DNA of 64,000 nucleotides from Phyllobates terribilis (GCF_046119375.1 NW_027362772.1:252712001-252776000), one strand, 5' to 3'. Counted from the stretch's first letter, positions 1-51,029 are shown. The notes: a model not told the origin generated them from the sequence alone. Program-made: numbers and translations.

Positions 1-262
1 TAAATATGACGTATTTCATCTGTGACTGTGCTGGTGTACTGCAACCCCCTACAGCAACCATCATGTATACACATCATGTTGTGAAGGAGAGAACGCTGTG
101 TTTTACTTCCTTACCTCGGGAAAGTGTCAGGTAACATTTCCACTACATTCCAAACCCGGAACATCATTCACTTACCATGATTAATGACAATCACAATCAC
201 TGACAGCTCTCCACATGTACTAATATACGGTACATATATAGAAATATATCCACACATACATA

Positions 263-1945
263 CACTCCCTGACAGAAGTTATGTCGCTTATCCATGTTAT
301 GTAAATAAAAGCTTATAACCTGACGTTAAATTCATCCATTGGTTTTATAAATTACTCTTTTGAAAGCTGAAACCCTCCCAAATTTGGTTTAGGTTAAGAA
401 AATAAATCGGCATCAATGCTGAAATATTGATCATTTAATGAACACAGAATGGTCAGATTTTGGCAAGACAAAAGTTTTGTCGCCTGGTCATATAATGCAC
501 CCAATCCTAGTTTACATCCTCACCAGTGCTCAGTAAATGATCGGTTAATTAGTGGGTGTGTATAAAAAGAAACCCAGCACCCCAGACCTTCACTTGAACT
601 GCAACTTGAGCTCTGACAACATGCCAAAAATCCACCCTGCGACCAAAGCCTTGATTATCAAGAGGCTGAAGACCAGATCCACCGCAGAGGTGGCTGGCAC
701 CTTTAATGTGTCTCAGCGTCAAATACAAAGAATTAAAAAAAGATTTGAAGAGACTGGAGATGTGTTTGACAAGCCCAGGTCCGGCAGACCCCACAAGACA
801 ACTGCTCAGGAGGAATGTTTGATGGTTAGAAAATCCAAAGCAAGCCCCTCTTCCACTGCAGCAGAGCTCCAACCGGCCTGGTCACCTCAAGTCCCAGTGT
901 CAATTAGAACAGTTTGTAGGATTCTGTCTCGAAATGGCCTCCATGGTCGAATCAGTGCCCAGAAGCCAGCATTAAACAAAAGGCAAATAAAAAACCGTGT
1001 GGCATTTACAAAGTCCCACAGCCTGCTAAACAGATGGACGCTGGAAAAGTGGCAGAAGGTGGATTTCTCTGCTGAATCTTTAGTAGAATTACACCACATC
1101 CACCGCAAATACTGCAGGAGACCTACTGGAGCCCGTATGGATCCAAAATACACTCAGAAAACAGTTACATTTGGTGGTGGAAAGATCATGGTCTGGGGTT
1201 ACATTCAGTATGGGGGTGTGCGAAACATTTGCAAGGTGGAAGGCAATATCAATAGCCTAAAATATCAAGAAGTATTAGCTACCTCTTACATTCCAAATCA
1301 TAAAAGGGGTCAAATTCTGCAGCAGGATGGTGCTCCATCTCATACATCCATATCTACAACAAAGTTCCTCCAGGCAAAAAAGATCAAGGTGCTCAAGGAC
1401 TGGTCAGCCCAGTCACCAGACATGAACATCATTGAGCATGTTTGGGGTAGGATGAAAGAGGAAGCTTGGAAGACGAAACCAAAGAATCTAGATGACCTCT
1501 GGGAGGCATGGAAGACTGCATTCTTTGCTATTCCTGATTACTTCATTAATAAATTGTATGCAACATTGTTGAACCGCATGGATGCAGTCCTTCAAGCTCA
1601 TGGAAGTCACACAAAATATTAAATATGACTCTAATAGCACCACAACTTCATTCACCAATGTTATGTAACATATATTTGTATTTTAAGATAATTATTTGTT
1701 TGAATATCACATTACTTTCTGTGGGAGACAAAACTTCTGTCTTGCCAAAATCTGACCATTCTGTGTTCATTAAATGATCAATATTTCAGCATTGATGCCA
1801 ATTAATTTTCTTAACCTAAACCAAATTTGGGAGGGTTTCAGCTTTCAAAAGAGTAATTTATAAAACCAATGGATGAATTTAATGTCAGGTTATAAGCTTT
1901 TATTTACATAACATGGATAAGCGACATAACTTCTGTCAGGGAGTG
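263..1945 (+). mobile_element. Tc1-superfamily DNA transposon, DD35E spacing (Traveler-like), full length
   Basis: TA TSD at 261-262 and 1946-1947; ~219-bp TIRs (263-481, 1727-1945) starting CACTCCCTGACAGAAG; inner/outer direct repeats GACAGAAGTTATGTCGC / GACAAAAGTTTTGTCGC (IR/DR type); internal transposase ORF. Confidence 0.95.
621..1622 (+). CDS. Tc1-like transposase, open ORF, first catalytic Asp replaced by Ala
   Basis: ATG 621 in frame with ORF 552-1622; paired-like HTH, GRP motif (RSGRP), FSAES in place of FSDES, QQDGAP...35 aa...IIEHVW. Confidence 0.9.
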   Translation: MPKIHPATKALIIKRLKTRSTAEVAGTFNVSQRQIQRIKKRFEETGDVFDKPRSGRPHKTTAQEECLMVRKSKASPSSTAAELQPAWSPQVPVSIRTVCRILSRNGLHGRISAQKPALNKRQIKNRVAFTKSHSLLNRWTLEKWQKVDFSAESLVELHHIHRKYCRRPTGARMDPKYTQKTVTFGGGKIMVWGYIQYGGVRNICKVEGNINSLKYQEVLATSYIPNHKRGQILQQDGAPSHTSISTTKFLQAKKIKVLKDWSAQSPDMNIIEHVWGRMKEEAWKTKPKNLDDLWEAWKTAFFAIPDYFINKLYATLLNRMDAVLQAHGSHTKY

Positions 1946-1947
1946 TA

Positions 1948-8826: not shown

Positions 8827-9249
8827 TGTTAGAACTCTCCTGTTAGGTTTTTTCTAGTTTGCTGGTCACATGACCATTTTTGCCTATTTAATCCGGCTCC
8901 GCCCTCCTGGCCTTGCTGGACTTCATTGTATTTACTACTCTTGAGCTAGCTTGGTGCTCTGTTACCGTTCTCTGATAGTTTTGCTAGGTCTTCGGACCTC
9001 TATGTTCTTTGTTGTGTGTTTGTCTTTGACTGCTACAATTTCTGCTAGGAGGTGTCCAACTTTATCCCAGTCCCTAGTTCTTGTAGGGATTCCTCCCTTG
9101 CATCTATAGGTCTTCGTACAGACTAGCCGAGGACTTTAGCGGGTCTGATTGCAGGATCAGGTTCCCCGTTACATCGTAGGGATCTAGTTTAGTTCGATTG
9201 TAGGGACAGATCTCCTGTCTTTCCTTAGTGCTTGTAGCAGATCATAACA

Positions 9250-9260
9250 GTAAGTCCAGC
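9250..9260 (+). promoter_or_regulatory. Self-priming-type PBS
   Basis: AAGTCCAGC (9252-60) is the reverse complement of GCTGGACTT (8915-23), which starts 30 nt after TATTTAA (8885); no TGG tRNA-type PBS. Confidence 0.75.
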
Positions 9261-9302
9261 CCAAAAAAAAATTTCTCTAAGGAAAGACCTCCAGTTTCCA
9301 TC

Positions 9303-12300
9303 ATGGTCTCGGTTCAAGATTTGGCTTAACGCTTGCAGGGACTCTCTCTGGAGGTGGCCGAGCTCCAACAACACGTGAGTAGCTGTTCTGGAGCACATTT
9401 GGTAGAGCCAAAGGTACGTCTGCCTGATCTATTTTTTGGTGAACAACAAGATTTTTTTTCTTTTAAAAATGCTTGTTTATTGTATTTTCGTTTAAGACCC
9501 GGATCATCTGGTGATGAATCACAGCGCATAGGGTTCATAATGTTACTTTTGCGCAAGGATCCTCAGGGATGGGCTTTTTCTCTCCAACCTAGTGATCCGT
9601 GCTTTAGATCAGTGGATAGTTTTTTTTCTGCTTTGGGTTTGTTGTACGATGATCCTGATCGTGTCTCATCTGCTGAGTCTGAATTGAGACGTTTGAGGCA
9701 GGGATCAGGTAATGTGGAAAAGTATTGTTCTCACTTCCGTCGGTGGTCTGCCCAGGTGGGGTGGAACAATTCAGCTTTGAAAAGTTTGTTTCTGGCGGGG
9801 CTAGGTGAAAGGGTTAAAGATTTGCTGACTGCTTATCCCACACCCGGAAACTTGCAGGAGGCTATGCAATTAGCTATACGGGTGGACAGGAGACTGCGTG
9901 CAAGGGTTAATGAGAGCAAATCCTCTGCTATGTCAGCTCCGAGTCTTGAGAGGGTCTGTGCTGACAAAGGAGAGCCGATGGAGATTGGGGCGATGACACC
10001 CCGCTCTCAGGAAAAAGACCGCAGGCTTTCTGAAGGTTTGTGCTTCTATTGCGGAAATTCTGGTCATTTTATTAAGAACTGTGTGCTTCGTATGAACAAA
10101 GAAAAAAAAATGGTCAGTTATGCCCGTATTGCCTGTTTAAATACAAAGGGAGTATTCCTATCTGCTACTACCACTGCTCAGGAAGAATTAATTGAATTTC
10201 GGGTATTTGTGGATTGTGGTTCTACTCTGAATGTGATTGATGGGGGATTCTTGGAAAAACTTACATTAAAACCTAAACCTTTGTCATCCCCTATTGCTGT
10301 GGTTTCTGTCGATGGCTCTCCCTTGAAGAGTGTTACTCACAAGGTCTGTGAATTTCCCCTCTCTGTTAATGGTATTCATCAAGAGAATTTGGATTTGGTA
10401 GTATTGAATAATTTGCCTTCTCCAGTAATATTGGGGTTGCCCTGGTTAAAATTGCATAATCCTGTACTGGATTGGTCTACCAATGAAATTAAGTCCTGGA
10501 GCCCTAAATGTTATGACAAGTGTTGTAACGGACGTATTGCTGCGGTGGAAAAAGGGGAATTACCTGTACCTATTCAGGATTTTTGGAGAGTTTTTTTCTG
10601 AGGAGGAGTCACAAATTTTGCCTCCCCATAGAGACTATGATTGTACCATTGAATTTGTCCCTGGAGCGACTCTTCCTAAAAGTCGTTTATTTAATCTTAC
10701 TATTCCTGAGAGAAAGGCTTTGGAGGAATACATACAGACAAGCTAGGCCGTCGGTCACATTAGGCCTTCCAAGTCTCCTGTGGCTGTTGGATTTTTTTTT
10801 GTTAAAAAAAAAAGATGGCGGTTTACGTCCTTGTCTGGACTTTCGTGAGATTAATAAAATTACTGTACGCAATCCTTACCCACTGCCATTGATTCCTGAT
10901 TTGTTTAACCAGTTAGTGGGGGCCAAGTGGTTCTCTAAAATTGATCTCCGGGGGGCATACAATTTGTTGCGCATGAAGGAGGGTGATGAATGGAAGACTG
11001 CTTTTAACACTCCTGTGGGTCATTTTGAGAATCTGGTTATGCCTTTTGGTCTTACCAATGCTCCAGCATTTTTTCAGAATCTTATTAATGACATCCTTAG
11101 ACCTTTGATCGGCAAAAATGTGGTTGTGTATTTGGATGACATTCTGATTTATTCGCCTGATCTGGAGTCTCATTGGCGGAGCGTACGTGAGGTATTACAG
11201 TTATTAATGGACAATTCGCTTTTTGCTAAGCTAGAGAAATGTGAGTTCGCTGTACAGAGAATTAGTTTTTTGGGTTACATTATCTCCAGTGAAGGTTTTG
11301 AGATGGACTCGGTTAAAGTTCAAGCTGTGCAGGAATGGCCTAGGCCTATTGGTTTGAAATCGATACAGAGGTTTTTGGGTTTCGCCAATTATTACAGAAA
11401 ATTCATAAAAAAAATTTCTATTATTGTCAAACCACTGACCGATCTCACCAGGAAAGGTGCTAATGCGGTTCAGTGGACTTCTGAGGCCATTGAAGCTTTT
11501 GTGTTTCTAAAGGAGAGGTTCACCTCTGCTCCCATCCTTATGCAGCCTGATGTGACTAAGCCGTTTTTGGTTGAGGTTGATGCTTCTTCGGTAGGGGTCG
11601 GTGCGGTGTTGTCTCAGGAAAGCAAGGATGGAGTACGTCCCTGTGCCTTTTTTTCAAAAAATATTTCTGAGACCAAGAGACTTGTGGGTCGCAGTTTTTG
11701 GTTGCCTGGATGGCAGAAGGAAGTCATTAAGTGGGTGCGTCAATGTACTGTGTGTGCTAGATCTAAGTCTTCGCATGCTCCTGCTGCGGGGTTGCTTTGC
11801 CCTCTGGAGGTTCCTAGTGCACCTTGGACACATCTGGCCATGGACTTTATTACTGACCTTCCCCCCTCTGAAGGTTTCACGGTCATCTGGGTGGTCGTGG
11901 ACCGTTTTAGCAAGATGTGTCACTTGGTTCCCTTCATCAAACTGCCTTGCGCTAAGACACTCGCTAAGGCCTTTGTCAAGGAAATTGTCAGACTACATGG
12001 CGTTCCTACTGACATTGTTTCTGATAGGGGACCTCAGTTCGTGGCTCGTTTTTGGCGTGCCTTTTGTGACAGGTTGGGAGTTCATTTGTCGTTTTCATCC
12101 GGATATCATCCTGAGTCTAATGGCCAGACAGAAAGAAAGAACCAGGATGTTGAGCAGTTCTTGCGTTGCTTTGTGGCAGACAATCAAGAGGGGTGGTCTG
12201 AGTTTCTGCCACTTGCTGAATTTGCTCTTAACAACCATACATCCTCTTCTGCTGGGTGTTCGCCTTTTTTTTGTTGTACTGGGAGACATCCGTCTTTTGG

Positions 12301-12892
12301 GTCATTCTCCAAATTGGTATCGACTGTGCCGGAGGAGGAGAGTTTTTGCGGTGATTTGGAGAGAGTTTGGACGGATGTGCGTGATAATCTTCAGGAGGCT
12401 AACAAAAAATCTAAGAGGTACTTTGATAGGAAACGGCAAGAGGTTTCGTTTGCTATTGGTGACATGGTTTGGTTGTCCTCTAAGAATCAGCGATTGAGGA
12501 TTCCTTTGAAAAAATTGGGTCCCAAGTTTGTAGGGCCCTTTAAGGTGCTTCAGATAGTTAACCAATCTGCTGTTAGGTTGGAGGTTCCTACCTCCTGGAA
12601 GATTAATCCGGTGTTTCATGTTTCTCTGTTGAAAAAAGCTGATGTGTCGGTTGGTGACGCCTCTGCCACTGTTCCTCCGGTGGTGGAGGACGGGGAATAT
12701 GAAATTTCCCGCATCCTAAATTCTAGACGGTATAGAGGGAGTTTGCAGTATCTCGTTGCTTGGAAGGGTTTCGGACCCGAGGATAACTCATGGGTGAGGG
12801 CGGATGATGTTTCTGCTTCCAGACTTGTCAGAGCATTTCACAGGAGGTTTCCTGATAAGCCCGGTCCTAGGGGATCCGGAGGATCCTCTTAG
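9303..12892 (+). pseudogene. gag-pol with chromodomain, disrupted
   Basis: CCHC knuckle CFYCGNSGHFIKNC; protease VDCGS; RT YLDD; integrase MDF/SDRG/ERKN; chromodomain YEISRIL...YLVAWKGFGPEDNSW; early stop at 9327, frameshifts at homopolymers, RNase H deletion. Confidence 0.93.
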
Positions 12893-13445
12893 AAGAGGGG
12901 GTACAGTTAGAACTATCCTGTTAGGTTTTTTGTAGTTTGCTGGTCACATGACCATTTTTGCCTATTTAATCCGGCTCCGCCCTCCTGGCCTTGCTGGACT
13001 TCATTGTATTTACTACTCTTGAGCTAGCTTGGTGCTCTGTTACCGTTCTCTGTTAGTTTTGCTAGGTCTTCGGACCTCTATGTTCTTTGTTGTGTGTTTG
13101 TCTTTGACTGCTACAATTTCTGCTAGGAGGTGTCCAACTTTATCCCAGTCCCTAGTTCTTGTAGGGATTCCTCCCTTGCATCTATAGGTCTTCGTACAGA
13201 CTAGCCGAGGACTTTAGCGGGTCTGATCGCAGGATCAGGTTCCCCGTTACATCGTAGGGATCTAGTTTAGTTCGATTGTAGGGACAGATCTCCTGTATTT
13301 CCTTAGTGCTTGTAGCAGATCATAACAGATATCAGTTGTGTCCGCCAGTACCAGCCTGTGTGTCTGTCGTGCCAGCCAGTACTTGCCAAGTCCGCCAAGA
13401 AAATATTGAGCGCTCTTTAGAAATGGACATGATTCACCATTCGGG

Positions 13446-13790
13446 TAGGGTCACACCACCATTTTTTCTGCATCCGAGAGAAATTATCTGAATATTCTGA
13501 TCAGATCAGAGTTTGATCAGAAGTTAATCGAGTGGTATCAGTTTTTCTCGGAGATCGAGAGAAGAAGAAAAAAAGTTTCTCCACCTTCTCCATTCTGTCA
13601 GTCAGTGAAAATCGGACAGCACTCGGATGACATTCGTGTATGATCTTATGTTTTTCATGAACTCGTAGACTTGCATTGGCGATTTTGATCCGACACTCTG
13701 ATCAAAATCGGACGTATCTCTGATTTTTTCCTTTGGCCAAATGGTCCAAATCGGACATGTGCACACCCCATAGAATATCATGGTGCTATC
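13446..13790. mobile_element. Decayed non-autonomous DNA transposon fragment
   Basis: AGGGTCACAC-like end and short internal inverted motifs (GATTTTGATCCGA..TCTGATCAAAATC); no second terminus. Confidence 0.35.
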
Positions 13791-15099
13791 CATGAACAAC
13801 ACAGATAGAACTTATCCGATAGAATCGATAGTGTTCACAGGCCCTTTGTCTCATCCTTTCTCTTCAAGAGCACACCACTCCTCAGCTCTCTGCTTACTGC
13901 TTGTTGGGGGGCAAGTTACTTACTACTTAACCAACAGTTTGGACCAGCGGCTAAAACTGTGTGGTCTTCGATGCTGCCGATGCTTCGAGGAGCACAGTAG
14001 CATTGAAGCTGGCTAGGATCAGGAGCTAATGGTGCACTTCAGAAATCCTCCACTCCAGTTTTAGTGCTGTGCTTACAACCTCAATAGAAAAGAGCTTGTA
14101 AACACTGCATATGTTTAGCCTCTAGACCACAGCGGTGGCTGGTAGCCTAGGCAAAGAGCAGTAAACAATACAAAATAAAAGTATAGTTATTAAGGGAACG
14201 GTGCTTGATTTTAATATGTGGTAAATTGGAAAGTTACTTGTCTTACAAGAACTTTCCACTTATGGGAATAACCTTTTAAGGGGTAAGAGTTATTTGTAGA
14301 TAACACAGGTCAAAATATCCAAACCTCAGCCTTTTCCTCCTCTAAGAAGCAAAAGCTCTTAAGCTTTCTTTTACATTTTTAAATGAAGTTTCACGTTGAG
14401 ACCGATACAAAGAAATATAGTAAGGTTGACATTCCTGGCAGTATCTGTAATATGGAGAAATATTTGGTTGGATTTACAGCATAAGTAAAGGTCTTGGAGA
14501 TAAGTCATATTGGGAAATACTTGGGGGAACCTAATATGTGTGGTCTTGGAAAAAAAAAAAGAATGAAGAGAATATGATGAAACCCAACAATTAAATAGTA
14601 GTTAGTTGGACACTTTCCAAGAGAAAGTGAAATATAGAAAGAGAGGGCAAAAGCTAAAGCCAGAAGCAGAACGATCAGGAGTAACATAAGAGGGCAAACT
14701 AGATGGAGTTTGCATTTTGTTTCTTATGATTTTTTCACAATTAGGATTTTGCAGTGAATAGTCGATTTGGGTAGATTAAAAAAATCTGGCAGTACAGAAA
14801 CAAAAATGTTTCCAAAATAACAAAACTATGTTGCCCATAATATAATATCAGTATCATTTCAGTAATAGTATAATAAGAGTCTCATTTTTCTAATGCCACC
14901 GATCCTCGGGGGAGTGACATTATGTTCACTGAGACGTCACCTGACCTTGGCAGCCAATCATAGCAGTGCCATGTGATGATGCATTTATAGGGCTGTGGTA
15001 TGATTGGTTGTTATATTATATGTTGCCAAAATCCTACTCAAAAGAGGAAAATATCGATGCTAAACTCAAATCAGGGTTCGCCTATCAGAACTGTTAATA

Positions 15100-16050
15100 C
15101 CCCTTAGTTAAACCTTCTTCCAAAAATCCACATTCCTTGAAGACTGAATTACAATGGTTCCCAAGTATTAACGAGACCCATTCCTTCCTCTAACAGCCAA
15201 TGGAAGCCGTACATGGGGCATTAAGGATGGTCCCATAGTAGTTTGTCTCGATGGCAAAATTGCCTTATTTGTAAGGCAATGCTACTAATGAATTATAGTA
15301 TTATATGAACATATATAATATATATCACTGTATACTTTTATTTATACTCCATAGAAACCTGACTAAATAATTGGAAACAGATGGGCAATCGAAAATCTAT
15401 CTCATCCTAAATGCAAAGATTTACGGTACTAAATATTTGCCGGCTGATCACATAAGGATTGGCAACCTCCATTTACCTCTCACTTACATCACAGTCTGCA
15501 CTTATTTACCATATGGAAATAGTATCCTGCCAAATCCAGAGAATATATAGTATTCAAGAGGAAAAGGTGCAACACATAAAAGTGAAATATATCAAAAGTA
15601 ACAAAAAATGAATACAGATAAAGCTATTAGGCTTGCATATTATTCATATGAGGACAACTCAAAGCCTAGACCACGCATGGCAGCAAACCTCTTCTCCAAC
15701 ACCTCCTTGTTCTCCAAGACCCACCAGATACAAGTTCTTGGTTGAAAACTCTGTCCATATGCTATCTATGATTATAGACTAAGCATTACACTACATTGTG
15801 GTTATTTCATTTGTCTTTGAGGATTTCCTTCGATCTTGTAAAGTCTTCATGGTAACCACTAAGTTCTCATGACAAGGTTCTAAATATAAGGATGGATATA
15901 GGGTTGTTCTCAACTTCTTTTATTGGTGAAATTTCAATTTGCTTGTGTAAAAGCAAGCACCATTGTAATCGTATCTTCGTTTCCAAGAATGGATAGAATT
16001 TTAATTTGATAATTTTACTGCTTGTTACCTCAGTTATAATCCCACACAAG
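15100..16050 (-). pseudogene. Possible very old L1-like ORF2 remnant
   Basis: Weak resemblance of KIRLQWC..EISPIKEVENNPISILIFRTLS to the L1 RT TRQGCPLSPLLF region; many stops. Confidence 0.25.
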
Positions 16051-16249
16051 CCACTGCAGTCTATCAGTAGTGACTGGTCTCCTAGACAAACAGCGCAGCG
16101 CTTACAAGCTTGTTGCTATTGAGTTTGTAAGCGCTTCTCTGAAGCTGCCTGGATCACTGGACCCCTGAGCTCCACTGGTGCTGCAGAGGCATAGGTGTCT
16201 CTGCTTGCAAAATCAGAGAGCAAATCTTTTAGACCAGCAGCTCAATGAT

Positions 16250-16890
16250 GTCACTAGTCCAAACTGCCAATCAATCAAGAGCGTACAGCCCACGGCAAGC
16301 AGGAAACTCTTGAGGCTGGGGAACAGCATGCTCCTGAATATGGAAGACAAGATTGCCATTGGTCCAAATTGTCGAACAGTGATGAGCTCACAAAGCCTCG
16401 GCAAGCAAAAAACCTCTAAGGCTGGGGAGCAGCGCACTCCTGAATATGGAACACAACATTGCTACTGGTCCAAACTGTCGATCAGTGAGGAGCACACAGC
16501 TCCCTGGCAAGGGAAAAACCCTTGAGGCTGGGGATCTGCATGCTCCTGAATATGGAAGAAGAGATAATCACTGGTACAAACTATCAATCAATCAAGAGCA
16601 CACCGCTCCCCAGCAAAAAAGAAACCTTTGAGGCTGGGGAGCAGCACACTCCTGAACATGAAAGACAAGATAGCCACTGGTCCAAACTGTCAATCAGTGA
16701 GGTGCAAACAGCTCCCCAGCAAGCAAGAAATCCTTGAGGCTGGGGAGCTTGTGCTCCTGAATATGGAAGAAGAGATTACCACTGGAAGAGATTACCAAAC
16801 TGTCAATTAATCAGGAGCATACCGCTCCCTGGCAAGTAGGAAGCCAGGAGGCTAGAGAACCGCATGCTCTTTAATGTGGAAAATGAGATT
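16250..16890. repeat. Diverged minisatellite, 106-bp unit, about 6 copies
   Basis: CTCCTGAA(T/C)ATG at 16331, 16437, 16543, 16649, 16754. Confidence 0.9.
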
Positions 16891-17626
16891 TAACCCTTTA
16901 CGGGGGGTTTTCTCAGGACCTAATGTTCTTTATGTTAGCAAAGAAAGTCTCTCACTCTGGCAGACCTGACCCTTACATATATTACATTTTAAGTAATCAC
17001 TGAATAGCTGACACATATTACTATATAATACAATGTATGGACAGATGTGGGGACAGCTATAATTTACAAAATGATTTACCTCCACTCAAAGTGCAAAAAA
17101 ATAAGCTCATGATATCACTCTCTTTTAGTAACAGTCAGAGGGGTTCATGAAAGAAAGATTTAAGCTGCTGTAGGCAGAATTCGTGCAATGTAGACATGTT
17201 TTCCATGACACTGAGGGGAAACAGTTGTCACTACTGAATTCCTTGCGTTGTCTAACAAAGCTATAGATCTACAGCACAAATGAGTGCAAATGGAGGTTTC
17301 TGGCAGTGCGATGATTCTATTTTCTTGGTTGGAGGGAGTTGACCATGGACTGCCTGCCTTGTTTTTCTATCAGATCTCCAGGGAAAAACACAGCTAAAAG
17401 ATTTGAGCAAAAAATATACCCTGTCATTCAAGCATGTAGTGCTATAATAATGTACACATATATTTATGTGTACACATACGTGTTTGTGCTAATGTAATTA
17501 ATTTATAAATCTGCCCTGTTTTGCACATGTCTTCCCCTAAGGATGACCCTCTAGGCTCTATTTACTCTCTAGTTGCTTTTGGATCAGTCCTGCCGTGGTC
17601 CCAGTGCTCCTTGTTGATGATGTACA

Positions 17627-20600
17627 TGTTAGAATCTATGTTGTTTTACTATCGGCCATCTTGTTGTGGTTTGCTGACTTCTAGTCTTTTCCTCTGGTGC
17701 TGGGTGTCTTGGTCATGTGATCTCTGCACTCTTTATTACTCAGCACCTGTCTCCCATTCCCCGCTGGACATCAGTGTTGTTACGCTCGTGCTCTGGCTAA
17801 GTTGCCTTGTTAAGTTCTTTGTGCTTTGGACAATTGATATCCTGGGACTTCTTGTTCCACCAGTTTTGTTCCCTTTAATCTTCGTTTCTGCAACTAACTT
17901 TTCTGTTAGGAGGTCTCCTGTTTTTGCTCCCAGTCCTTAGATCTTTTAGGGACCCCTTTCCCCTTCCTACAGGTCTTCATTTGAGTTCAGCGCAGGAGTT
18001 TCGGTGGGGCTATTCACAAGGAATAGGGCACCCACCCCAGCGTAAGGTTAAGATGAGTCTCAGTGCAGGGACAGCTTTTCCCTCCTATTCCTTGGTTCTA
18101 AGTTGCAGAACATAACAGTATGTCCAGCCCCGTTTAAAAAAAAATAAAATAGTTTTTTTTTTTTCTTTTTCTTCTCCTCTCCTCTTCCTGGATTTTCTTC
18201 AGTATGAGTAACATCCAGTAGCTTGCTCAACGCTTGCAAGGGTTGACTCTGGAGGTTGCTGGTCTTCAGCAGTACATGAGTAAATACCCTGCGGAACGCT
18301 ATGAAGAACCTAGAGTGTTGACAGGATTTTTTTTCATTTAAAAATGCTTGTTTGTTGTATTTTCAGCTCAGACCTAGATCTTCTGGGAGTGAACTACAGC
18401 GTGTAGGGATTATTATGTCTCTATTGCATAAGGAACCTCAAATCTGGGCGTTTTCCTTGTCTCCTGATGATCATTGTTTGAGGTCTGTGGAGGAATTTTT
18501 TGATGCCATGGGCTTGCTATATGATGATCCTGATCGGGTTACATCAGCTGAGGCAGAGCTCAGACTCTTGATGCTGAGAGTTATTGCACCCTGTTCAGAC
18601 GATGGTCTGCAGAGGTCAGGTGGAAAGACCCTGCACTCAAGTTTCAGTTTCTGGCAGGCTTGAGTGAAAGGATTAAAGATTTGCTCATTGCATTCCCTGC
18701 ACCTGATACTCTGCAAGTTGCCATGCAGTTAGCTATCCGTGTGGATAGAACGTTGAGGGCTAGACAGAATGAGGAGAAGTTTCCTGTATTGCTGGATTCT
18801 GTTTCTCACGATATTCCTGCCGACACTGGGGAACCTATGCAGTTGGGGGCAATGTCATCCCGTTCCAAGGAGAGGGACAGGAGGTTCTCTGAGGGACTTT
18901 GCTTGTATTGCAGTAAGGCTGATCATTTTCTAAAGCAATGTAAGATTCGCTTAAGGAAAGAAAAAAAAATGGTCAGTAGAAATAACACTCCCGTTCACAT
19001 TGCGTTTTTACGTTCTGCTGGGGTGTTTTTTCCTGGTAATACCACCTGTCAGGGTCGTTCGATTGAGTTTCAGGTTATGGTGGATTGTGATTCTGCACTT
19101 AATTTGATTGATCAACAATTTCTTGAAAAGTATAAGTTTGATTCTGAACCTTTGTTGTCTCCTTTTCCTATGGTGGCGATTGATAATACTCCCCTGGAGC
19201 ATGGGAGCATTCTTCAAAAGGTCAGTGGGTTTCCGCTTACTATGAATATGGAACATCAGGAGCAGATTGACTTATTTGTACTTGCTAAGTTGCCTTCCCC
19301 GGTCGTCCTGGGGTTGCCCTGGTTAAAAGTGCATAATCCTTTGCTAGACTGGTCGTCTGGTTCCATAAGATCCAGGGGTCAGGGGTGTTATGGTAAGTGT
19401 TGCAATGTTCACATTGCAGCTGTTGTGAAGGGGGAATTACCTGAACCCATTCAGGATTTTTGGAGGGTTTTTTCGGAGGTGGAGTCGAAAGCTTTACCAC
19501 CTCATAGAGATTACGATTGCGCTATTGACTTCGTCCCTGATGCTAAGCTCCCTAAGAGTCGGTCGTTTAATCTGACAATTCCCGAGAGGGAGGCTTTGAA
19601 GGAGTACTTTCAGACTAGTTTAGCTGCAGGTCACATAAGACCCTCTAAGTCTCCTGTGGCGGTTGGGTTCTTTTTTGTCAAAAAGAAGGATGGGGGTCTT
19701 AGGCCATGTCTGGATTTTTGGGAGATTAATAAAATCACTGTGCACAATCCTTACCCGTTACCACTTATTCCGGATTTGTTTAACCAATTGACCGGAGCTA
19801 AATGGTTTTCTAAGATTGACCTTCGTGGGGCATATAATTCGCTGCGGGTGAAGGATGGAGATGAATGGAAGACAGCTTTTAACACCCGGAAGGTCATTTT
19901 GAGTGTTTGGTGATGCCTTTTGGGCTTAATAACGCCCCCGCATTTTTTCAAAATTTCATCAATGACATTCTGAGACTCTTGATCGGTAGGAGTGTTATTG
20001 TTTATCTGGATGACATTTTGATTTATTCATTGGATCTTGAGTCTCATTGGCAGAGAGTCCGCGAAGTTCTTCAGATACTGAGAGATAACACACTCTTTGC
20101 TAAATTGGAGAAGTGTCAGTTTGCTGTTCAGAAAATTCGTTTTTTGGGTTACTTTGTCTCTTGTGATGGTTTTGAGATGGACCCGGTGAAAGTTCAGGCT
20201 GTGCTGGAGTGGCCGAGGCCTGAGGGTTTGAAGTCCGTACAGAGGATTTTGGGGTTTGCCAATTATTACAGGAAATTCATAAAAAATTTCTCTGTCATCG
20301 CTAAACCCATTACTGATCTCACCAAGAAGGGTACTAATACAGTCCAATGGTCCACTGAGGCTATTGAAGCTTTTGAGTATCTCAAGGAGAGGTTCAGCTC
20401 TGCTCCTGTTCTTATCCATTCGGATGAGACCAGGCCATTTTTGGTTGAGGTGGATGCCTCATCTATAGGCGTAGGGGCAGTTCTGTCCCAGGAGGGTGAG
20501 GATGGGTTGCATCCCTGTGCTTTCTTTTCAAAAAATTTTTCTGAGACAGAGCTCAACTATGATGTTGGGAATTGTGAGTTGTTGGCTATTAAACTTGCGT

Positions 20601-22711
20601 TCGAGCATTGGCGACATTTTTTCGAGGGGGCTTGACATCCTATACAGGTTTTCACTGATCATAAGAATTTGATTTATCTGGACACAGCTAAACGTTTGAA
20701 TGCCCGTCAGGCTAGGTGGGCAATGTTTTTTGCCCGGTTCAATTTTTCCGCAACCTTTGTCCCAGGGACAAAGAATGTTAAGGCTGACGCTTTGTCTCGT
20801 AGTTTCTCTCCAGCTGTGAATGCTGAGAGGGAGGAGTGTATTTTGCAGAGAGGGGTGGTGGTGGCCGCATTGGATTCTGAGTTGGAGAATAGCATCCTAG
20901 GAGCTCAGAGTGCGGCACCAACTAACACTCCGTGTGGTAAATTGTTTGTGCCTAGAGCCTTGAGGAGAGCGTTGTTTGTTGAATGTCATGAGTCACGGTT
21001 GGCGGGTCACCCAGGGATTTCGGAAACTATTAAGTCTATCGGTCGGAGTTTCTGGTGGCCAGGGTGGCAAAGGGAAGTCATCAAGTGGGTGCGTCAGTGT
21101 TCTGTGTGCGCTAGGTTGAAGGCCTCTCACGCTCCGGCTGCAGGGTTGCTATGGCCCTTGGAAGTTCCTAGTTCGCCATGGACGTACCTTGCCATGGATT
21201 TTATCACCGATCTGCCTTTATCGGAGGGTTTTTCTGTCATCTGGGTTGTTGTGGACCGGTTTAGTAAAATGTGTCATCTGGTTCCATTCAACAAGTTACC
21301 TTGCGCCAAGACTCTTGCTAAGGCTTTTGTGAAGGAGATTGTCAGGCTCCATGGTGTTCCCATGGACATTGTTTCCGATAGAGGACCACAGTCTGTGACT
21401 CACTTTTGGCGTGCTTTTTGTGATAGATTGAAAATTCATTTGTCATTCTCGTCGGGGTATCATCCAGAGTCCAATGGACAGACTGAAAGGAAGAACCAGG
21501 ATGTCGAGTTTTTGAGATGTTTTGTGGCAGACAATCAGGAAATGTGGTCACAATTTCTACCACTTGCGGAGTTTGCCCTTAATAATCATACTTCTTCCTC
21601 GGCTGGTTGTTCTCCTTTTTTTGTTGTACTGGCAGGTATCCATCTTTTGGTCCATTTTCCAAAGTTGGGGCTGCTGTACCGGAGGAGGACACTTTTTCTG
21701 GTGATTTGGAGAGGGTTTGGACCAGTGTACGCCTGAACCTTAAAGAGGCTAACAGGAGATCAAAAAGGTATTTTGACAAAAAAAGAAAGGAGGCCTTGTT
21801 TGCTGTTGGGGATATGGTTTGGTTGTCCTCTAGGAATCTTCGTTTGAAAATTCCTTCTAAAAAACTGGGGCCTAAATTTGTGGGTCCTTTCAAAGTGGTT
21901 CAGATTGTCAACTCGGCAGCGGTGAGGTTGGGCATTCCCTTGTCCTGGAGGATTAATTCTGTGTTTCATGTGTCGTTACTTAAGAAGGCGGACACGCCTG
22001 ATAAGCAGGCGAAGCCTACTTTTCCTCCTGTTGATGAGGACGGTGAATTTGAGATTTCTCGCATTTTGGATTCCAGGTGGCATAGAGGAAGATTACAGTA
22101 TCTTATGTCCTGGAGAGGTTTTGGCCCCGAGGATAAATCCTGGGTGAAGGCCGAGGACGTCTTGGCCTCAAGTCTAATTAAGGCTTTTCACAGGAGATTT
22201 CCTGGTAAGGCTCGGCCTAGAGGATCCGGAGGATCCTCGTAAAAGGGGAGGTACTGTTAGAATCTATGTTCTTTTACTATCGGCCATCTTGTTGTGGTTT
22301 GCTGACTTCTAGTCTTTTCCTCTGGTGCTGGGTGTCTTGGTCACGTGATATCTGCACTCTTTATTACTCAGCACCTGTCTCCCATTCCCCGCTGGACATC
22401 AGTGTTGTTACGCTCATGCTCTGGCTAAGTTGCCTTGTTAAGTTCTTTGTGCTTTGGACAATTGATATCCTGGGACTTCTTGTTCCACCAGTTTTGTTCC
22501 CTTTAATCTTTGTTTCTGCAACTAACTTTTCTGTTAAGAGGTCTCCTGTTTTTGATCCCAGTCCTTAGATCTTTTAGGGACCCCTTTCCCCTTCCTACAG
22601 GTCTTTGTTTGAGTTCAGTGCAGGAGTTTCAGTGGGGCTATTCACACGGAATAGGGCACCCACCCCAGATTTTCCCTCCTATTCCTTAGTTCTAAGTTGC
22701 AGAACATAATG
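17627..22711 (+). mobile_element. Ty3/Gypsy chromovirus (Tf1/Sushi group), copy 2, distinct LTR family, full length but decayed
   Basis: LTRs 17627-18117 (491 bp) and 22255-22711 (457 bp, 34-bp deletion, terminal CA changed to TG); TSD GTACA (17622-26, 22712-16); PPT AAAAGGGGAGG 22241-51; PBS GTATGTCCAGC 18118-28. Confidence 0.96.
18204..22242 (+). pseudogene. gag-pol with RNase H, integrase and chromodomain, multiply disrupted
   Basis: CLYCSKADHFLKQC; VDCDS; YLDD; VEVDAS/ELLA/TDHKN; HHCC; MDF/SDRG; FEISRIL...YLMSWRGFGPEDKSW. Confidence 0.93.
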
Positions 22712-22769: not shown

Positions 22770-25258
22770 TCTACCTGTCTGCTCCTGTACAGGGCCCTGC
22801 CTGACTCATTTCATCTACTGCCATCTACATCAATATAGCTTTGTGGTTTTATAACATTTTTAGCTGGTTTCTAGCAGAGCTAACTCTCCTGCACCCCTCC
22901 ACAACGGAGCTTGTAAGAAATAGGCAGTGTAGAGCAGAGCTGTGTTTGCTGCCTGTTGTTGACAGATCAGTGATTTGAAACTATAAATACTACTTTGTTG
23001 AAGCGTATGGTAGAAGTTAATCGTCTGCCATATGCATCAATGAAGTACCATTTGCAGTTTCACATTACTGATGTGTCATTTGCAGGCAACAAACACAGCT
23101 CAACTCTGCCTATTTATTACAAGCTCCATTCTGGAGGAGTGCAGGAGAGTCGAGCTCTGTTCGAAACCAGCTACCAATGATATAAAACCACACAGGCTGT
23201 TATTCTGATGTAGATGGTGTTATGATCTGCTACAGAGACTAAGGAAAGGCAGGAGATCTGTCCCTACAATAGAACTAAACTAGATCCCTACGATGTAACG
23301 GGAAACCTGATCCTGCGATCAGACCCGCTAAAGTCCTCGGCTAGTCTGAACGCAGACCTATAGATGTAGGGGAGGGATCCCTACAAGATCTAGGGACTGG
23401 GACAAGTTGGACACCTCCTAGCAGAAATAGTAGCAGTCAAAGACAAACACACAACAGAAAGCATAGAGGTCCGAAGACCTAGCAAAACTAACAGAGAACG
23501 GCAATAGAGCAACAAGCTAGCTCAACAGTAGTAAATACAAATGAAGTCCAGCAAAGCCAGGAGGGCGGAGCCGGATTAAATAGGCAAAATGGTCATGTGA
23601 CCAGCAAACTAAAAAAAAACTAACAGGAGAGTTGTAACAGTACCCCCTCTTCTAAGAGGATCCCTACAAGATCTAGGGACTGGGACAAGTTGGACACCTC
23701 CTAGCAGAAATAGTAGCAGTCAAAGACAAACACACAACAAAAAGCATAGAGGTCCGAAGACCTAGCAAAACTAACAGAGAACGGCAATAGAGCAACAAGC
23801 TAGCTCAACAGTAGTAAATACAAATGAAGTCCAGCAAAGCCAGGAGGGCAGAGCCGGATTAAATAGGCAAAATGGTCATGTGACCAGCAAACTAAAAAAA
23901 CCTAACAGGAGAGTTGTAACAGTATAAATCAAAATGTCATCCAAATACACCACCACATCTTTGCCGATTAAAGGTCTAAGGATATCATTAATAAGATTCT
24001 GAAAAAATGCTGGAGCATTGGTGAGACCAAAAGGCATAACCAGATTCTCAAAATGACCCACAGGAGTGTTAAAAGCAGTCTTCCATTCATCACCCTCCTT
24101 CATGCGCAATAAATTGTATGCCCCCCGGAGATCAATTTATTGCGCATGAAGGAGGGTGATGAATGGAAGACTGCTTTTAACACTCCTGTGGGTCATTTTG
24201 AGAATCTGGTTATGCCTTTTGGTCTCACCAATGCTCCAGCATTTTTTCAGAATCTTATTAATGATATCCTTAGACCTTTAATCGGCAAAGATGTGGTGGT
24301 GTATTTGGATGACATTTTGATTTATACTGTTACAACTCTCCTGTTAGGTTTTTTTTAGTTTGCTGGTCACATGACCATTTTGCCTATTTAATCCGGCTCC
24401 GCCCTCCTGGCTTTGCTGGACTTCATTTGTATTTACTACTGTTGAGCTAGCTTGTTGCTCTATTGCCGTTCTCTGTTAGTTTTGCTAGGTCTTCGGACCT
24501 CTATGCTTTTTGTTGTGTGTTTGTCTTTGACTGCTACTATTTCTGCTAGGAGGTGTCCAACTTGTCCCAGTCCCTAGATCTTGTAGGGATCCTCTTAGAA
24601 GAGGGGGTACTGTTACAACTCTCCTGTTAGTTTTTTTTTAGTTTGCTGGTCACATGACCATTTTGCCTATTTAATCTGGCTATCATCCTGAGTCTAATGG
24701 CCAGACAGAAAGGAAGAACAGTGTTGAGAAGTTCTTGCGTTGTTTTGTGGCAGACAATCAAGAGGGGCTGGACTTACTGTTATGATCTGCTACAGAGACT
24801 AAGGAAAGGCAGGAGATCTGTCCCTACAATAGAACTAAACTAGATCCCTACGATGTAACGGGGAACCTGATCCTGCGATCAGACCCGCTAAAGTCCTCGG
24901 CTAGTCTGAACGCAGACCTATAGATGTGGGGGAGGGATCCCTACACGATCTAGGGACTGGAACAAGTTGGACACCTCCCAGCAGAAATAGTAGCAGTCAA
25001 AGACAAACACACAACAAAAAGCATAGAGGTCCGAAGACCTAGCAAAACTAACAGAGAACGGCAATAGAGCAACAAGCTAGCTCAACAGTAGTAAATACAA
25101 ATGAAGTCCAGCAAAGCCAGGAGGGCGGAGCCGGATTAAATAGGCAAAATGGTCATGTGACCAGCAAACTAAAAAAAAACTAACAGGAGAGTTGTAACAG
25201 ATGGGAGAAGATAAAATCGGTCAGACGGGGTCCTGTGCAAGAGCAGAGAGTAGAAAGA
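22770..25258. mobile_element. Fold-back (palindromic) MITE-like element interrupted by the LTR element at 23218-25199
   Basis: 22811-22960 is the diverged reverse complement of 23082-23217, and 22770-22815 matches 25200-25258 after the insertion. Confidence 0.75.
23218..25199 (-). mobile_element. Non-autonomous chromovirus derivative with internal inverted duplication
   Basis: TG...CA ends; TSD GATGG (23213-17, 25200-04); 422-bp LTRs 24778-25199 (5') and 23218-23639 (3'); PBS 24765-77; PPT 23640-57; inverted arms 23570-24116 and 24133-24680. Confidence 0.93.
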
Positions 25259-37285: not shown

Positions 37286-39641
37286 ATTCACGCTCCCATG
37301 CCACCTGGAACAACCCCAGTCCTGACCAGGGACACCCATTAATGGGCATAGTTTCTGTAAACCTCACCCTTTTCAGCCCATGACGCTGAAAATTTTCAGA
37401 GACTATTTGTTTTGGCTCACCTGCTGAAGTGGATGCTCCAAGCACAAGTTTTGTGTGGGAGCACAGGCCATGGGCGTCAGTACAGCAGACAGAGAAGGCA
37501 TGAATGAAACAGTTAGCAGTGGTCCTGGAGACCACAGGCAGACAGGAGACTGGGAAGTACTGGATGCCGCAGGCAGACAGGAGACTGGAAGGAAGGTAGC
37601 AGAGATCCTGGAGACCGCAGGCAGACAGGAGACTGGGAGACAGGTAGCAGAGGTACTGGAGGCCGCAGGCAGACAGGAGAATGGGAAGCCGGTAGCAGAG
37701 GTACTGGAGGCCGCAGAGAGACAGGAGAAAGGAAGCCAGTAGCAGAAGTACTGAAGGCTGCAGAGAGACAGGAGAAAGGAAGCCAGTAGCAGAAGTACTA
37801 GGGGCTGCAGAGAGACAGGAGACAGGGAACCTGGAAGCAGAGGTACGGGAGACCACAGAGAGACAGGAGACTGGGAAGCTGGTAGCAGAGGTACTGGAGG
37901 CTGCAGGCTGACAGGAAGCTGGGAAGCCGGTAGCAGAGGTACTGGAGGCCGCAGAGAGACAGGAGACAAGAAGCCAGTAGCAGAAGTACTGGAGGCTGCA
38001 GAGAGACAGGAGACAGGGAAGCTGGAAGCAGAGGTACTGGAGGCCGCAGAGAGACAGGAGACTGGGAAGCAGGTAGCAGAGGTACTGGAGGCCACAGGCA
38101 GACAGGAGACTTGGAGGCAGGTAGCAGAGGTACTGGAGGCCACAGAGAGACAGGAGACTAGGAAGGAGATAGCAGAGGTAATGGAGGCTGCAGAATGACA
38201 GGAAACAGGGAAGCAGGTAGCAGAGGTACTGGAGGCCACAGGCAGACAGGAGACTTGGAGGCAGGTAGCAGAGGTACTGGAGGCCACAGAGAGACAGGAG
38301 ACTAGGAAGGAGATAGCAGAGGTAATGGAGGCTGCAGAATGACAGGAAACAGGGAAGCAGGTAGCAGAGGTCCTGGAGGCTGAAGAGAGACAGGAGACTG
38401 GGAAGCAGATAGCAGAGGTACTGGAGGCTACAGAGAGACAAGAGACTGGGAAGCAGGTATCAGATGTACTGGAGGCCGCAGGCAAACAGGAGACTGGAAA
38501 ACAGCAGAGGTACTAAAGGCCGCAGGCAGACAGGAGACTGGGAAACAGTTAGCAGAGGTACTGGAGGCCGTAGGCAGACAGGAGACTGGGAGGCAGGTAG
38601 CAGAGGTATTGTAGGCCACCGTCAGACAGAAGACTGGAAAGCAGGTAGCAGAGGTACTGGAGGCTGCAGAGAGACAAGAGACTGGGAAGCAGGTAGTAGA
38701 AGTACTGGAGGCCGCAGGCAGACAGGACAGGAGACTGGGAAGCCAGTAGCAGAGGTACTGGAGGCCACAGGCAGACAGGAGACTGGGAAGCAGTTAGAAG
38801 AGGTACTGTAGGCTGCAGGCAGACAGGAGACTGGGAGGCAGGTAGCAGAGGTGCTGGAGGCCGCAGAGAGACAGGAGACTGGGAAGCAGGTAGTAGAAGT
38901 ACTGGAGGCAGCAGGCAGTCAGGAGACAGGGAAGCAGGTAGCAGAGGTACTGGAGGCCACAGAGAGACAGGAGACTGGGAAGCTGGTAGCAGAGGTACTG
39001 GAGACTGCAGGCAGATAGGAGACTGGGAAGCTGGTAGCAGAGGTACTGGAGACCGCAGGCAGACAGGAGACTGGGAAGCAGCTAGCAGAGGTACTGTCGG
39101 CCGCAGGCAGACAGGAGACTGGGAGGCAGGTAGCAGAGGTACTGGAGGCCGCAGAGAGACAGGAGACAGGGAAGCAGGTAGTAGAGGTACTGGAGACCAC
39201 AGAGACAGAGGAGACTTGGAAGCAGGTAGCAGAGGTACTGGAGACCACAGAGAGAGAGGAGACTGGGAAGCAGGTAGCAGAGGTACTGGAGACTGCAGGC
39301 AGATAGGAGACTGGGAAGCAGGTAGCAGAGGTACTGGAGACTGCAGGCAGATAGGAGACTGGGAAGCTGGTAACAGAGGTACTGGAGGCCGCAGGCAAGC
39401 ATGAGACTGGGAAGAAGGCAGCAGAGGTTGCGGAAGCCACAGACAGACAGGACTCAGGAACACTAAAAGTCTTAATACCAAGACACAGATGTGTGTCTTG
39501 GTAGGCCTTATACAGGCCTAGGTAGACGATCAGATGAGAGCACGCCAGGCCATCTGCAAAGCCCGACATGGAGCACAACAGAGTTCAGAGGACCAGGATG
39601 AGCAAAACCCGGTGTGGGGCAGGTGTGTAGTACTATTAACA
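37286..39641 (-). mobile_element. Solo-LTR-like element inflated by a minisatellite
   Basis: Minus strand starts TGTTAA at 39641; TATAAG at about 39510; left end TCACGCTCCC is LTR-like but imperfect; no TSD found. Confidence 0.4.
37510..39450. repeat. Minisatellite, 48-bp unit, about 40 copies
   Basis: Unit GAGGTACTGGAGGCCGCAGGCAGACAGGAGACTGGGAAGCAGGTAGCA; period 48 (38041 to 38089). Confidence 0.97.
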
Positions 39642-44900: not shown

Positions 44901-45501
44901 CTCCTTGTAGCACTGCTCCCACAGAGCTCCTGTTGTTTCTTCCTATGCTGCTTCTCTTCTCTACTCTTGTTCTCTCTCTCAACCCTGCCTCAGCCCCAGG
45001 TTTATATAGGGGAAGTTCTTCCCCTCCCAGGACTGGGCAGGAGGTGTGGCATGCATAAGATCCCTGACCAAGAGACCTCCCACCTGCTCTCAGACATAAT
45101 ATTGCTATTATTGTGGAGACCAGACCCCTGGGGTGCCACATTCCCCCCTAGTGAAATTTAGTACTCCGGGACTAAACATATTTTACAAAAACATAACAGG
45201 GTATAACAACAACAATAAAATACAATAAGGAAACACATAAAGATGGTCACGGTGTGTCCGCAACCGGGTGCAGTCTTTGAAGAAAACAAAGGTGTCCATT
45301 TCACCAAAACAGGAGACGTAACCAGGTAGGGGTCTGTCCTGCCCCGAGTCCTTAACAGTCTTTAGTCCGTCCTGGGTTAGGCTCCAACTATACACAAAGG
45401 ATTACCGGTAAATCCACCAAAGACTCCTGTAAATAACTAGAAACACAAAATTATACACAAGCAACAATAACAGATAAACATTAATAAAATAACTTAAACA
45501 C

Positions 45502-48500: not shown

Positions 48501-48534
48501 TGATTACCCCAGCCTCCTTCATGTCTCTAAGCAT
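45502..48534 (-). CDS. pol: RT, RNase H, integrase
   Basis: CVDYRKIN, LDLTSGYWQ, YLDD, LYTDAS, LEFLA, YTHNNP (D to H), H..HF..C..C, LDH/TDQG/CEKMN; open for 1010 codons. Confidence 0.93.
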   Translation of the reverse strand: MLRDMKEAGVIKDSCSPWAAPLVLVKKKDNTMRMCVDYRKINRITHKDAYPLPRIEESLAALKSANFFSTLDLTSGYWQVPVAEADREKTAFTTPMGLSEFTCMPFGLCNAPGTFQRLMECCLGHRNFETVLLYLDDVIVYSKTYEDHLKHLAEVFEALASYGLKVKPSKCHLLKPKVQYLGHVVSADGVAPDPDKITAIKEWPSPSSVKEVRQFLGLVGYYRRFIPGFTRKAAPMQDLLIGQSRKAKNQKPPFRWEKLEEESFRQLKMALTGDEILAYPDYSQPFILYTDASNIGLGAVLSQIQQGKERVIAYASRKLRPTERNPENYSSFKLEFLAVVWAVTERFKHYLASSRFTVYTHNNPLTHLDTARLGALEQRWMARLSNYEFTIKYRAGRSNTNADALSRMPNLPDVGEDSEGLEEVELPAFHRHGTIQYSHRVRSKSATFNPLPHYNWAETQDSDPAVRLVKEMLTRPDARLDPDAPEEAKQLWAEKSRLFLYKGKLCRRMVNSRTHELIWQVVVPRRDAAMVMEAYHDGAGHFGWKKLEFLLRGRFHWVGMRGTIERWCRDCGPCNLRRKDRASQKTPLQSIVTRQPLELVALDHVKLTPSRSGYVYALTIVDHYSRFLVVVPVNDLTARTAARAFQQHFCRPHGYPDQVLTDQGPAFEAEIFQEFCTLYGCRKIRTTPYHPQTNGLCEKMNQVVIDLLKTLPLEERSLWPERLPDLVDLYNHIPVGSTNCTPAYLMRARPGKLPVDLEMGVLTPEDTSPEADWDTERQQQYRKVQESVERSLCQARERQEKTYNQYAPAVPLVPGEQVLKRKRRLHKLDDQWEKDPYTVLPSSHDNPKVCTISKDGGETTTIVSRDHLKKCPEQLRNPEEEQEDPRPVEEGKDMVSTVLGDFPRSWTQVNGAVVVPVLTFLQPESQVLTEQPVELEEQPVQEAEDSTQADQEDQPSAYSEPAIPLVSQRVRRRLPSLPLTAPIPCSSGPVSQLRRSTRVTRGQLPVRWRI

Positions 48535-48551
48535 CCCCTTGGCGTGTTTGG

Positions 48552-50644: not shown

Positions 50645-51010
50645 AGGCCGCGGCTCCGCAGTGGATCGTCAGGGTCGAGGACCTTCCGTCGCGCTCCTGT
50701 GACGTCGGCGTCTGCTGGGCTCCTTCCAGGACCTTACGCAACGTCCGGACGTGAGGCAGGGCTTCAGTTCTCGCGCGCCTTCGGAGTCCACGCCCCTCTT
50801 CTTCCCGCTCGGCGTCTTCAAGATGGCGTCCAACGGCGGGAAAACTCCATGGATGGCGGGAAGAAGGCAGAAGATGGCGCCGGATGGCGGGAAAACTTCG
50901 CGGATGGCGGGAAGAAGGCAAAAGATGGCGCCGGATGGCGGGAAACTTCACCACTGGTAAGTTTGAACAGTCTTTTTCAGGCACGCAGTACCCGGTGGTT
51001 GCGGGCACGA

Positions 51011-51029
51011 AATCCTGCCGACTACGCCA
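51011..51029 (-). promoter_or_regulatory. Primer-binding site complementary to tRNA-Ser 3' end
   Basis: Plus strand AATCCTGCCGACTACGCCA equals the last 19 nt of vertebrate tRNA-Ser(AGA/UGA) including CCA; 5 nt from the 5' LTR end. Confidence 0.92.

What the first reader, a model, noticed from the sequence alone, without database searches (positions are those of the whole stretch)
8885..18128. Self-priming PBS with a compensatory base change between two chromovirus families
Seen: copy 1 has GCTGGACTT (8915-23) 30 nt after TATTTAA, and its PBS is AAGTCCAGC (9252-60). Copy 2 has an otherwise dissimilar LTR, with GCTGGACAT (17763-71) about 30 nt after TTTATTA and PBS ATGTCCAGC (18120-28). The T/A swap keeps a 9-bp duplex. 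After a bulged C, pairing can extend into the LTR end (ACAGT) in both. The hairpin element keeps the copy 1 pair. Established: Tf1 primes from its own 5' end after RNase H cleavage, and Sushi-group elements are proposed to do likewise. Inference: covariation supports this mechanism and predicts the TSS at 8915 and 17763.
Basis: partly seen in the sequence, partly recalled or inferred. Interest (0 to 1): 0.7.

Follow-up and report, generated by a model that had tools for sequence, protein, structure and literature searches.

The report
Self-priming Sushi-type retrotransposons in a frog
Two jumping genes here, and their relatives across this frog genome, have a primer site that pairs with 9-10 bases of their own end-repeat, with the letters changing in matched pairs between families, so they likely start copying from their own RNA, a trick already proven in yeast and already proposed for this group.

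Summary
Observation confirmed, with two corrections: the two LTRs are homologous (298 of 411 aligned columns identical), and the extension helix of copy 2 has a G·G mismatch. The swap is fixed between sister families: about 9,750 family-1 and 318 family-2-pattern junctions. Covariation holds widely: 11 distinct perfect R/PBS pairs in this genome, positions 3-10 all varying, 0 of 110 cross-family pairs perfect, each about 30 nt after a TATA-like box. Four metagenome elements show the same layout; tRNA-type elements do not. The best tRNA match found is 8 nt of tRNA-Gln. This is Tf1/sushi self-priming, known in print; start site and cleavage are untested here. Within family 1, only 1 of 77 PBS variants is compensated. 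One possibly new detail: a C follows the PBS in 14 of 15 primer types with no genomic G partner, where the cap G would sit. The scan reported self-priming in this genome before, on other DNA (e1-8631615, e1-9302274).

The parts
8827..9249 (+). Element 1 (family 1) 5' LTR; target duplication GATAT at 8822-26 and 13328-32
8885..8891 (+). TATA-like box of element 1
   Evidence: sequence; 30 nt before the G
8915..8923 (+). Predicted self-primer (predicted RNA 5' end) of element 1, GCTGGACTT
   Evidence: start site not tested
8925..8929 (+). Extension strand ATTGT, pairs with the LTR end and spacer (9247-51) after a bulged C
9217..9228 (+). U5 strand of a possible third helix, exact 12-nt complement of 9277-9288
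   Evidence: sequence; kept in most family-1 copies; not significant in the shuffle test
9250..9261 (+). 2-nt spacer GT, PBS AAGTCCAGC (9252-60) and the unpartnered C at 9261
9330..12892 (+). gag-protease and RT-RNase H-integrase-chromodomain frames of element 1 (internal deletion in RNase H/integrase border)
12889..13327 (+). Polypurine tract, 2-nt spacer AC and 3' LTR (12905-13327) of element 1, 98.8% identical to the 5' LTR
17627..18117 (+). Element 2 (family 2) 5' LTR; target duplication GTACA at 17622-26 and 22712-16
17732..17738 (+). TATA-like box of element 2
   Evidence: 31 nt before the G
17763..17771 (+). Predicted self-primer of element 2, GCTGGACAT
18118..18129 (+). 2-nt spacer GT, PBS ATGTCCAGC (18120-28) and the unpartnered C at 18129
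18552..22242 (+). Frameshifted gag-pol of element 2 with chromodomain
22256..22711 (+). Element 2 3' LTR (internal deletion, terminal CA changed)
23218..25199 (-). Single-copy fold-back derivative of family 1: two LTRs, target duplication GATGG, PBS at 24767-75 joined to an antisense integrase piece through GGG microhomology

Best explanation
These are Sushi-type chromodomain Gypsy retrotransposons whose primer-binding site pairs with 9-10 bases of their own LTR about 30 nt after a TATA-like box, and they likely prime reverse transcription as yeast Tf1 does: the predicted first 9-10 bases of the RNA would fold onto the site and would be cut off by the element's RNase H to serve as primer. Shown here: the complementarity, its fixed register (starting 2 nt after the LTR's terminal CA), matched changes at positions 3-10 across 11 primer types, no TGG, and a stable predicted helix. 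Inferred: that transcription starts at the G; that the cut falls after base 9 (families 1, 2) or 10 (others), because the perfect helix ends at the 2-nt spacer that mirrors the 2 nt between PPT and LTR; that plus-strand synthesis copies the primer into PBS DNA, which would favour strict Watson-Crick matching; and that the C after the PBS faces or is copied from the cap G.
For: Blind search: in 17 of 21 elements with an automatically confirmed LTR end and target duplication, the best complement of the 16 nt after the LTR is 9-11 nt; the other 4 hit the same site with mismatches; the 16 nt after the 3' LTR give 5-8 nt. With R located from promoter words only: 45 of 70 perfect, 57 of 70 within one mismatch, 11 perfect types, 0 of 110 cross pairs perfect. 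Four metagenome elements repeat the layout with new letters. Controls: 10 of 10 plant-type TGG elements give 6-8 nt at unrelated offsets and window element 3 gives 6. Self-pairing elements form one RT clade apart from TGG-type ones. Literature passages: Tf1 cut between bases 11 and 12 (PMC7175516); self-priming common to Tf1/sushi (PMC10085805; PMC6317226); PBS copied into cDNA ends (PMC11042837).
Against: No start-site or cleavage data. Within family 1, only 1 of 77 readable independent PBS position-2 variants has the matching R change, about what chance gives, so write-back of the primer is not shown here. The third helix of the Tf1 'pretzel' is absent in family 2 and beats shuffles in only 3 of 13 representatives. 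The old family FA lacks the extra C (0 of 10) and 5 of 10 copies would have a G·U at position 3. A 9-nt primer is shorter than the 11 nt of Tf1. DNA cannot tell whether the primer comes from the 5' end of the same RNA, a second RNA or the 3' R copy.
Confidence: 0.85

Rival explanations
1. Self-priming, but the primer comes in trans from a second packaged RNA or from the 3' R copy, not by fold-back of the same RNA's 5' end.
For: The same letters are in both LTRs. Among 81 independent family-1 PBS variants, 50 carry T, the family-2 letter, against 16 G; background T:G is 310:349 (p = 8e-6).
Against: The match begins at the TATA+30 G in every family. T-variant copies are as old as G-variant copies (median 0.0218 each) and older than canonical copies (0.0170, p = 0.005), as later mutation predicts; C is also in excess. 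Family-2-pattern copies with A were family-1 copies in 4 of 4 checked.
Confidence: 0.08
2. The pairing is a structural helix (packaging, dimerisation or translation control) and priming uses something else.
For: The helix extends past the PBS into the LTR end in most families; no cleavage data.
Against: The perfect part ends at the priming position, 2 nt from the LTR end, and no tRNA site is present; covarying pairs are Watson-Crick only while the extension has G·U pairs and mismatches.
Confidence: 0.05
3. A tRNA fragment primes, such as a 5' half of tRNA-Gln(TTG) cut in the anticodon loop.
For: tRNA-Gln(TTG) genes of this genome contain CTGGACTT, an 8-nt match to the family-1 PBS. Half-tRNA priming is described for some Copia lineages (PMC6317226).
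Against: 8 nt against 9 plus 5 for self-pairing; the match breaks on both sides and fails for family 2; it cannot explain matched changes in R across 11 types. A full tRNA set was not obtained (one search yielded only tRNA-Lys in the 8 loci scanned).
Confidence: 0.02

Closest known systems
Tf1/Tf2 of Schizosaccharomyces pombe (also Tj1, Tosmo1-3, Tcry1)
   Same: Chromodomain Gypsy element; PBS complementary to the predicted RNA 5' end; no tRNA site; a PBS-adjacent helix with LTR sequence (passages of PMC7175516, PMC4600332, PMC10085805).
   Different: Primer 9-10 nt rather than 11; cleavage and start site proven for Tf1, only predicted here; third helix seen in family 1 but not family 2.
[quoted passage not shown] 2001)
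   Same: Same group by domain order, LTR termini TGTYANR..ACA (PMC3601003) and nearest named proteins from frogs and teleosts at about 55-65%; self-priming proposed for the group (PMC6317226, PMC10085805).
   Different: No direct comparison with the named elements was possible. Butler 2001 was not read, so I cannot say whether it already lists matched changes or the extra C.
Plant chromoviruses with TGGTATCAGAGC PBS (present on small contigs of this assembly)
   Same: Sister chromodomain lineage, RT 45-50% identical.
   Different: TGG-type PBS and no self-complement.

Membership tests
Ty3/Gypsy chromovirus | LTRs, target duplication, PR-RT-RH-IN order, C-terminal chromodomain | tested here: met
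Tf1/sushi group | RT clade apart from tRNA-primed plant chromoviruses, with vertebrate and fungal-type relatives | tested here: met
   (support 100/100 and 99)
Tf1/sushi group | Clusters with named references (sushi-ichi, Amn, Tf1) | not tested
   no named reference sequence was in hand
Tf1/sushi group | PBS complementary to LTR sequence at the predicted start, no TGG | tested here: met
Tf1/sushi group | The complementary LTR sequence is the real RNA 5' end | tested here: inconclusive
   TATA spacing of about 30 nt; only contigs of runs guessed to be RNA were available
Tf1/sushi group | Three-helix 'pretzel' structure | tested here: inconclusive
   central helix in 13 of 13; short extension in most; third helix clear in family 1, absent in family 2, better than shuffles in 3 of 13
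Tf1/sushi group | RNase H cleavage releases the primer | not testable with these tools
   RNase H domain present; activity untested
tRNA-primed LTR retrotransposon | PBS starts with TGG and matches a tRNA 3' end | tested here: not met
   none of the 11 types starts with TGG; window element 3 does and matches a tRNA gene
Half-tRNA-primed elements | PBS matches a tRNA 5' half | tested here: inconclusive
   8-nt match to tRNA-Gln for family 1 only; full tRNA set not obtained

The most novel reading that the evidence does not exclude
The mRNA cap is part of the primer system: the C that follows the PBS in 14 of 15 primer types, where the genome never offers a G partner, pairs with the cap G or is written by reverse transcriptase copying the cap, so the genome records both the capped start and the end of plus-strand strong-stop DNA.
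Probability: 0.35. Interest if true: 0.6.

Novelty: new member of a known kind. Interest (0 to 1): 0.36.

Why it matters
Self-priming is shown by experiment in yeast Tf1 and proposed for vertebrate relatives from complementarity. Matched changes over 11 primer types in one genome, plus 4 from metagenome contigs, are strong comparative support and give exact predictions: start at the G, cut after base 9 or 10. Family 1 has about 9,750 junctions in this genome, so the RNA and cDNA ends should be measurable. If the extra C is a cap footprint, it would be a natural case of the cap serving as pairing partner or template in retroelement replication. The mechanism itself is not new.

Tried and rejected
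Start site from public runs: no RNA holder listed on record; four runs guessed to be RNA were contigs only and show no starts or ends. Viral-contig scan: no relative. 400 kb beside the window: no chromovirus hit, so no unbiased sample. Rfam tRNA search gave only tRNA-Lys in the 8 loci scanned. Write-back of the primer within family 1: 1 of 77 compensated; its second LTR was not in the fetched stretch. Trans-priming by family 2 as cause of the A>T excess: not supported by copy age. One search misplaced R in several copies through a loose match; its pairing counts are replaced (its PBS+1 and +2 counts do not depend on R). The duplicate filter was faulty and is replaced. General third helix: not significant in 10 of 13. 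The idea that family 6's PBS is a relic of the plant Met PBS: family 6 is not basal. Primary papers of Levin's group were not held. Searches finding no paper: self-priming + chromovirus + amphibian, 0; self-priming + compensatory + LTR retrotransposon + primer binding site, 1 unrelated use; listings for cap-related terms showed nothing on a C after a self-priming PBS (listings only for most).

Full report
What is there. The window (G000:C12:252712001-252776000) holds two complete chromodomain Gypsy elements. Element 1 has LTRs at 8827-9249 and 12905-13327 (98.8% identical) and the target duplication GATAT; element 2 has LTRs at 17627-18117 and 22256-22711 and GTACA. Both encode RT, RNase H, integrase and a chromodomain; their RTs are 74% identical and are sisters. 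The nearest named proteins are from frogs and teleost fish. Two details need correcting: the LTRs are homologous along their length (298 of 411 columns), which makes the swapped bases homologous sites, and copy 2's extension helix has a G·G mismatch.

The swap is a family difference. The family-1 junction pattern has 9,750 matches, 95 of the first 100 with AAGTCCAGC; 25 of 30 read loci pair perfectly. The family-2 pattern has 318 matches, 95 of the first 100 with T at PBS position 2. Of 30 read, R was located in 27: 24 have A at R8 with PBS T, one has G at R8, one has PBS C, and the one PBS-A copy is a family-1 element with T at R8; three further PBS-A matches were also family 1.

Wider covariation. 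I fetched 60 stretches around Pfam hits; 42 of 63 (with the three window elements) had an LTR pair and 21 of 42 passed an automatic end and target-duplication check. In a blind search of the whole LTR, 17 of 21 gave a 9-11-nt complement of the bases after the LTR, starting 1-2 nt after the terminal CA; the other four hit the same site with mismatches; host flank after the 3' LTR gave 5-8 nt. With R then located from promoter words alone, 70 of 73 junctions were placed: 45 perfect, 57 within one mismatch, 65 within two (one placement, L176, is probably wrong and was kept in). The perfect ones fall into 11 types. Positions 1-2 are always G-C and C-G; positions 3-10 each show 2-4 Watson-Crick pair types; 0 of 110 cross-type pairs are perfect. 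The G lies about 30 nt after a TATA-like word in all groups. These types are related, so they are not 11 independent trials, and the sample came from best Pfam hits, not a random draw. Of 78 metagenome loci, 27 had flanking repeats and 12 a fixable LTR end; four repeat the layout with new letters (L367, L375, L376, L418), five are self-complementary in another way (13 nt near the LTR end, or 8 nt without a TATA box) and three show nothing. Controls behave as expected: ten plant-type elements with TGGTATCAGAGC give 6-8 nt, and window element 3, whose TGG-type PBS matches a tRNA gene, gives 6.

Structure. Folded from the predicted start, both window RNAs pair the 5' end with the PBS (z -2.5 and -2.2); mean pairing probability is 0.93-1.00 in 13 of 13 representatives. 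In 7 of 11 types TG at R13-14 pairs with the LTR's terminal CA whether the primer is 9 or 10 nt; this extension has G·U pairs and mismatches. A third helix between U5 and the leader is plain in family 1 (9217-28 with 9277-88) but missing in family 2, and beats shuffles in 3 of 13.

tRNA rival. No type starts with TGG. tRNA-Gln(TTG) genes hold CTGGACTT, 8 nt of the family-1 primer, with no extension. A full tRNA set was not obtained.

Mechanism. By analogy with Tf1, where the first 11 bases pair with the PBS and RNase H cuts between bases 11 and 12 (PMC7175516, passages), the RNA would start at the G, fold onto the PBS and be cut after base 9 or 10. The cut site is inferred from the 2-nt spacer, which mirrors the 2 nt between PPT and LTR. 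In Tf1 the PBS is copied into single-stranded DNA at the cDNA 3' end (PMC11042837, passages); such copying would favour exact Watson-Crick pairs. My within-family test does not show write-back: all 97 position-2 variants were read; 3 are family 2, 94 are family 1 at 81 independent loci, and 1 of 77 readable loci is compensated. The variant copies are older than canonical ones, as later mutation predicts. T is in unexplained excess over G (50:16 against a background of 310:349).

The extra C. The base after the PBS is C in 62 of 63 junctions outside family FA, 24 of 27 family-2-pattern copies and 4 of 4 TATA-linked metagenome elements, one of which starts with A. The base before R is T or C in all 70 located copies, so the C has no genomic partner, and the next base varies. 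MMLV RT adds one C opposite an m7G cap (PMC6885630, passages). The hairpin element's PBS is joined to foreign sequence within this C-run, a single event. Against: FA has 0 of 10, the five other self-complementary metagenome elements mostly lack it, shared ancestry or plain terminal-transferase activity could explain it, and nothing here tests the cap.

What is known. Self-priming is called a common feature of Tf1/sushi elements, vertebrates included (PMC10085805, passages and one supplement search; PMC6317226, passages; PMC4600332, passages). I also saw passages of PMC4668388, PMC5006619, PMC2864245 and PMC3601003. Levin 1995, Lin and Levin 1997 and 1998 and Atwood-Moore 2006 were not held and Butler 2001 was not read; figures were not visible, so prior mention of covariation or of the extra C cannot be excluded. 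The scan noted self-priming in this genome on other DNA; no note held the cap words.

Verdict. Real, well supported and of a known kind. Interest 0.36; the cap reading is the part worth an experiment.

Noticed in passing
window 23218-25199 (-): Single-copy fold-back derivative of family 1 with intact LTRs (98.6%) and target duplication; its inside is a palindrome of several hundred bases of LTR and RT sequence, a likely template-switch product and a possible source of hairpin RNA against family 1. Junction found once in the genome.
   Followed up: partly
window 44146-52031 (-): Young Gypsy element without chromodomain, PNMA-like gag, LTRs 99.4% identical, TGG-type PBS matching a tRNA gene that ARAGORN labels Ala(agc), 87 nt; I recall this 3' end as tRNA-Ser. 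Used as control.
   Followed up: partly
G000 small contigs C3xxx-C8xxx (L001-L030, L091-L120, L293-L303): Plant-type Gypsy elements with TGGTATCAGAGC PBS fill these contigs; likely plant contamination of the assembly.
   Followed up: partly
L142-L160 (family 6): The spacer and PBS read GTATCAGAGC, the same 10 letters as in the plant-type Met PBS, yet pair with the element's own R and covary with it; family 6 is not basal, so chance or relic is undecided.
   Followed up: partly
family-1 PBS position 2 (97 matches): A>T and A>C exceed A>G about threefold relative to background; cause unknown.
   Followed up: yes
L396; L404, L428, L430, L431: Metagenome elements whose PBS pairs with LTR sequence only 88-104 nt before the LTR end (13 nt; 8 nt plus possible extension), a different layout from the TATA+30 type.
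   Followed up: no
G000:C4:752.2-753.4 Mb and C5:164.4-164.9 Mb: Dense same-strand clusters of chromovirus integrase hits, perhaps tandem or segmental amplification.
   Followed up: no
L271, L274-L280, L283: Nine copies of one insertion with the same flank, mostly on unplaced contigs: segmental duplication or assembly haplotigs.
   Followed up: partly
window 261-1947, 60016-61516, 37400-39600, 54500-59400: Two Tc1/mariner transposons with long inverted ends, a 48-nt tandem array, and a nest of long inverted repeats.
   Followed up: no
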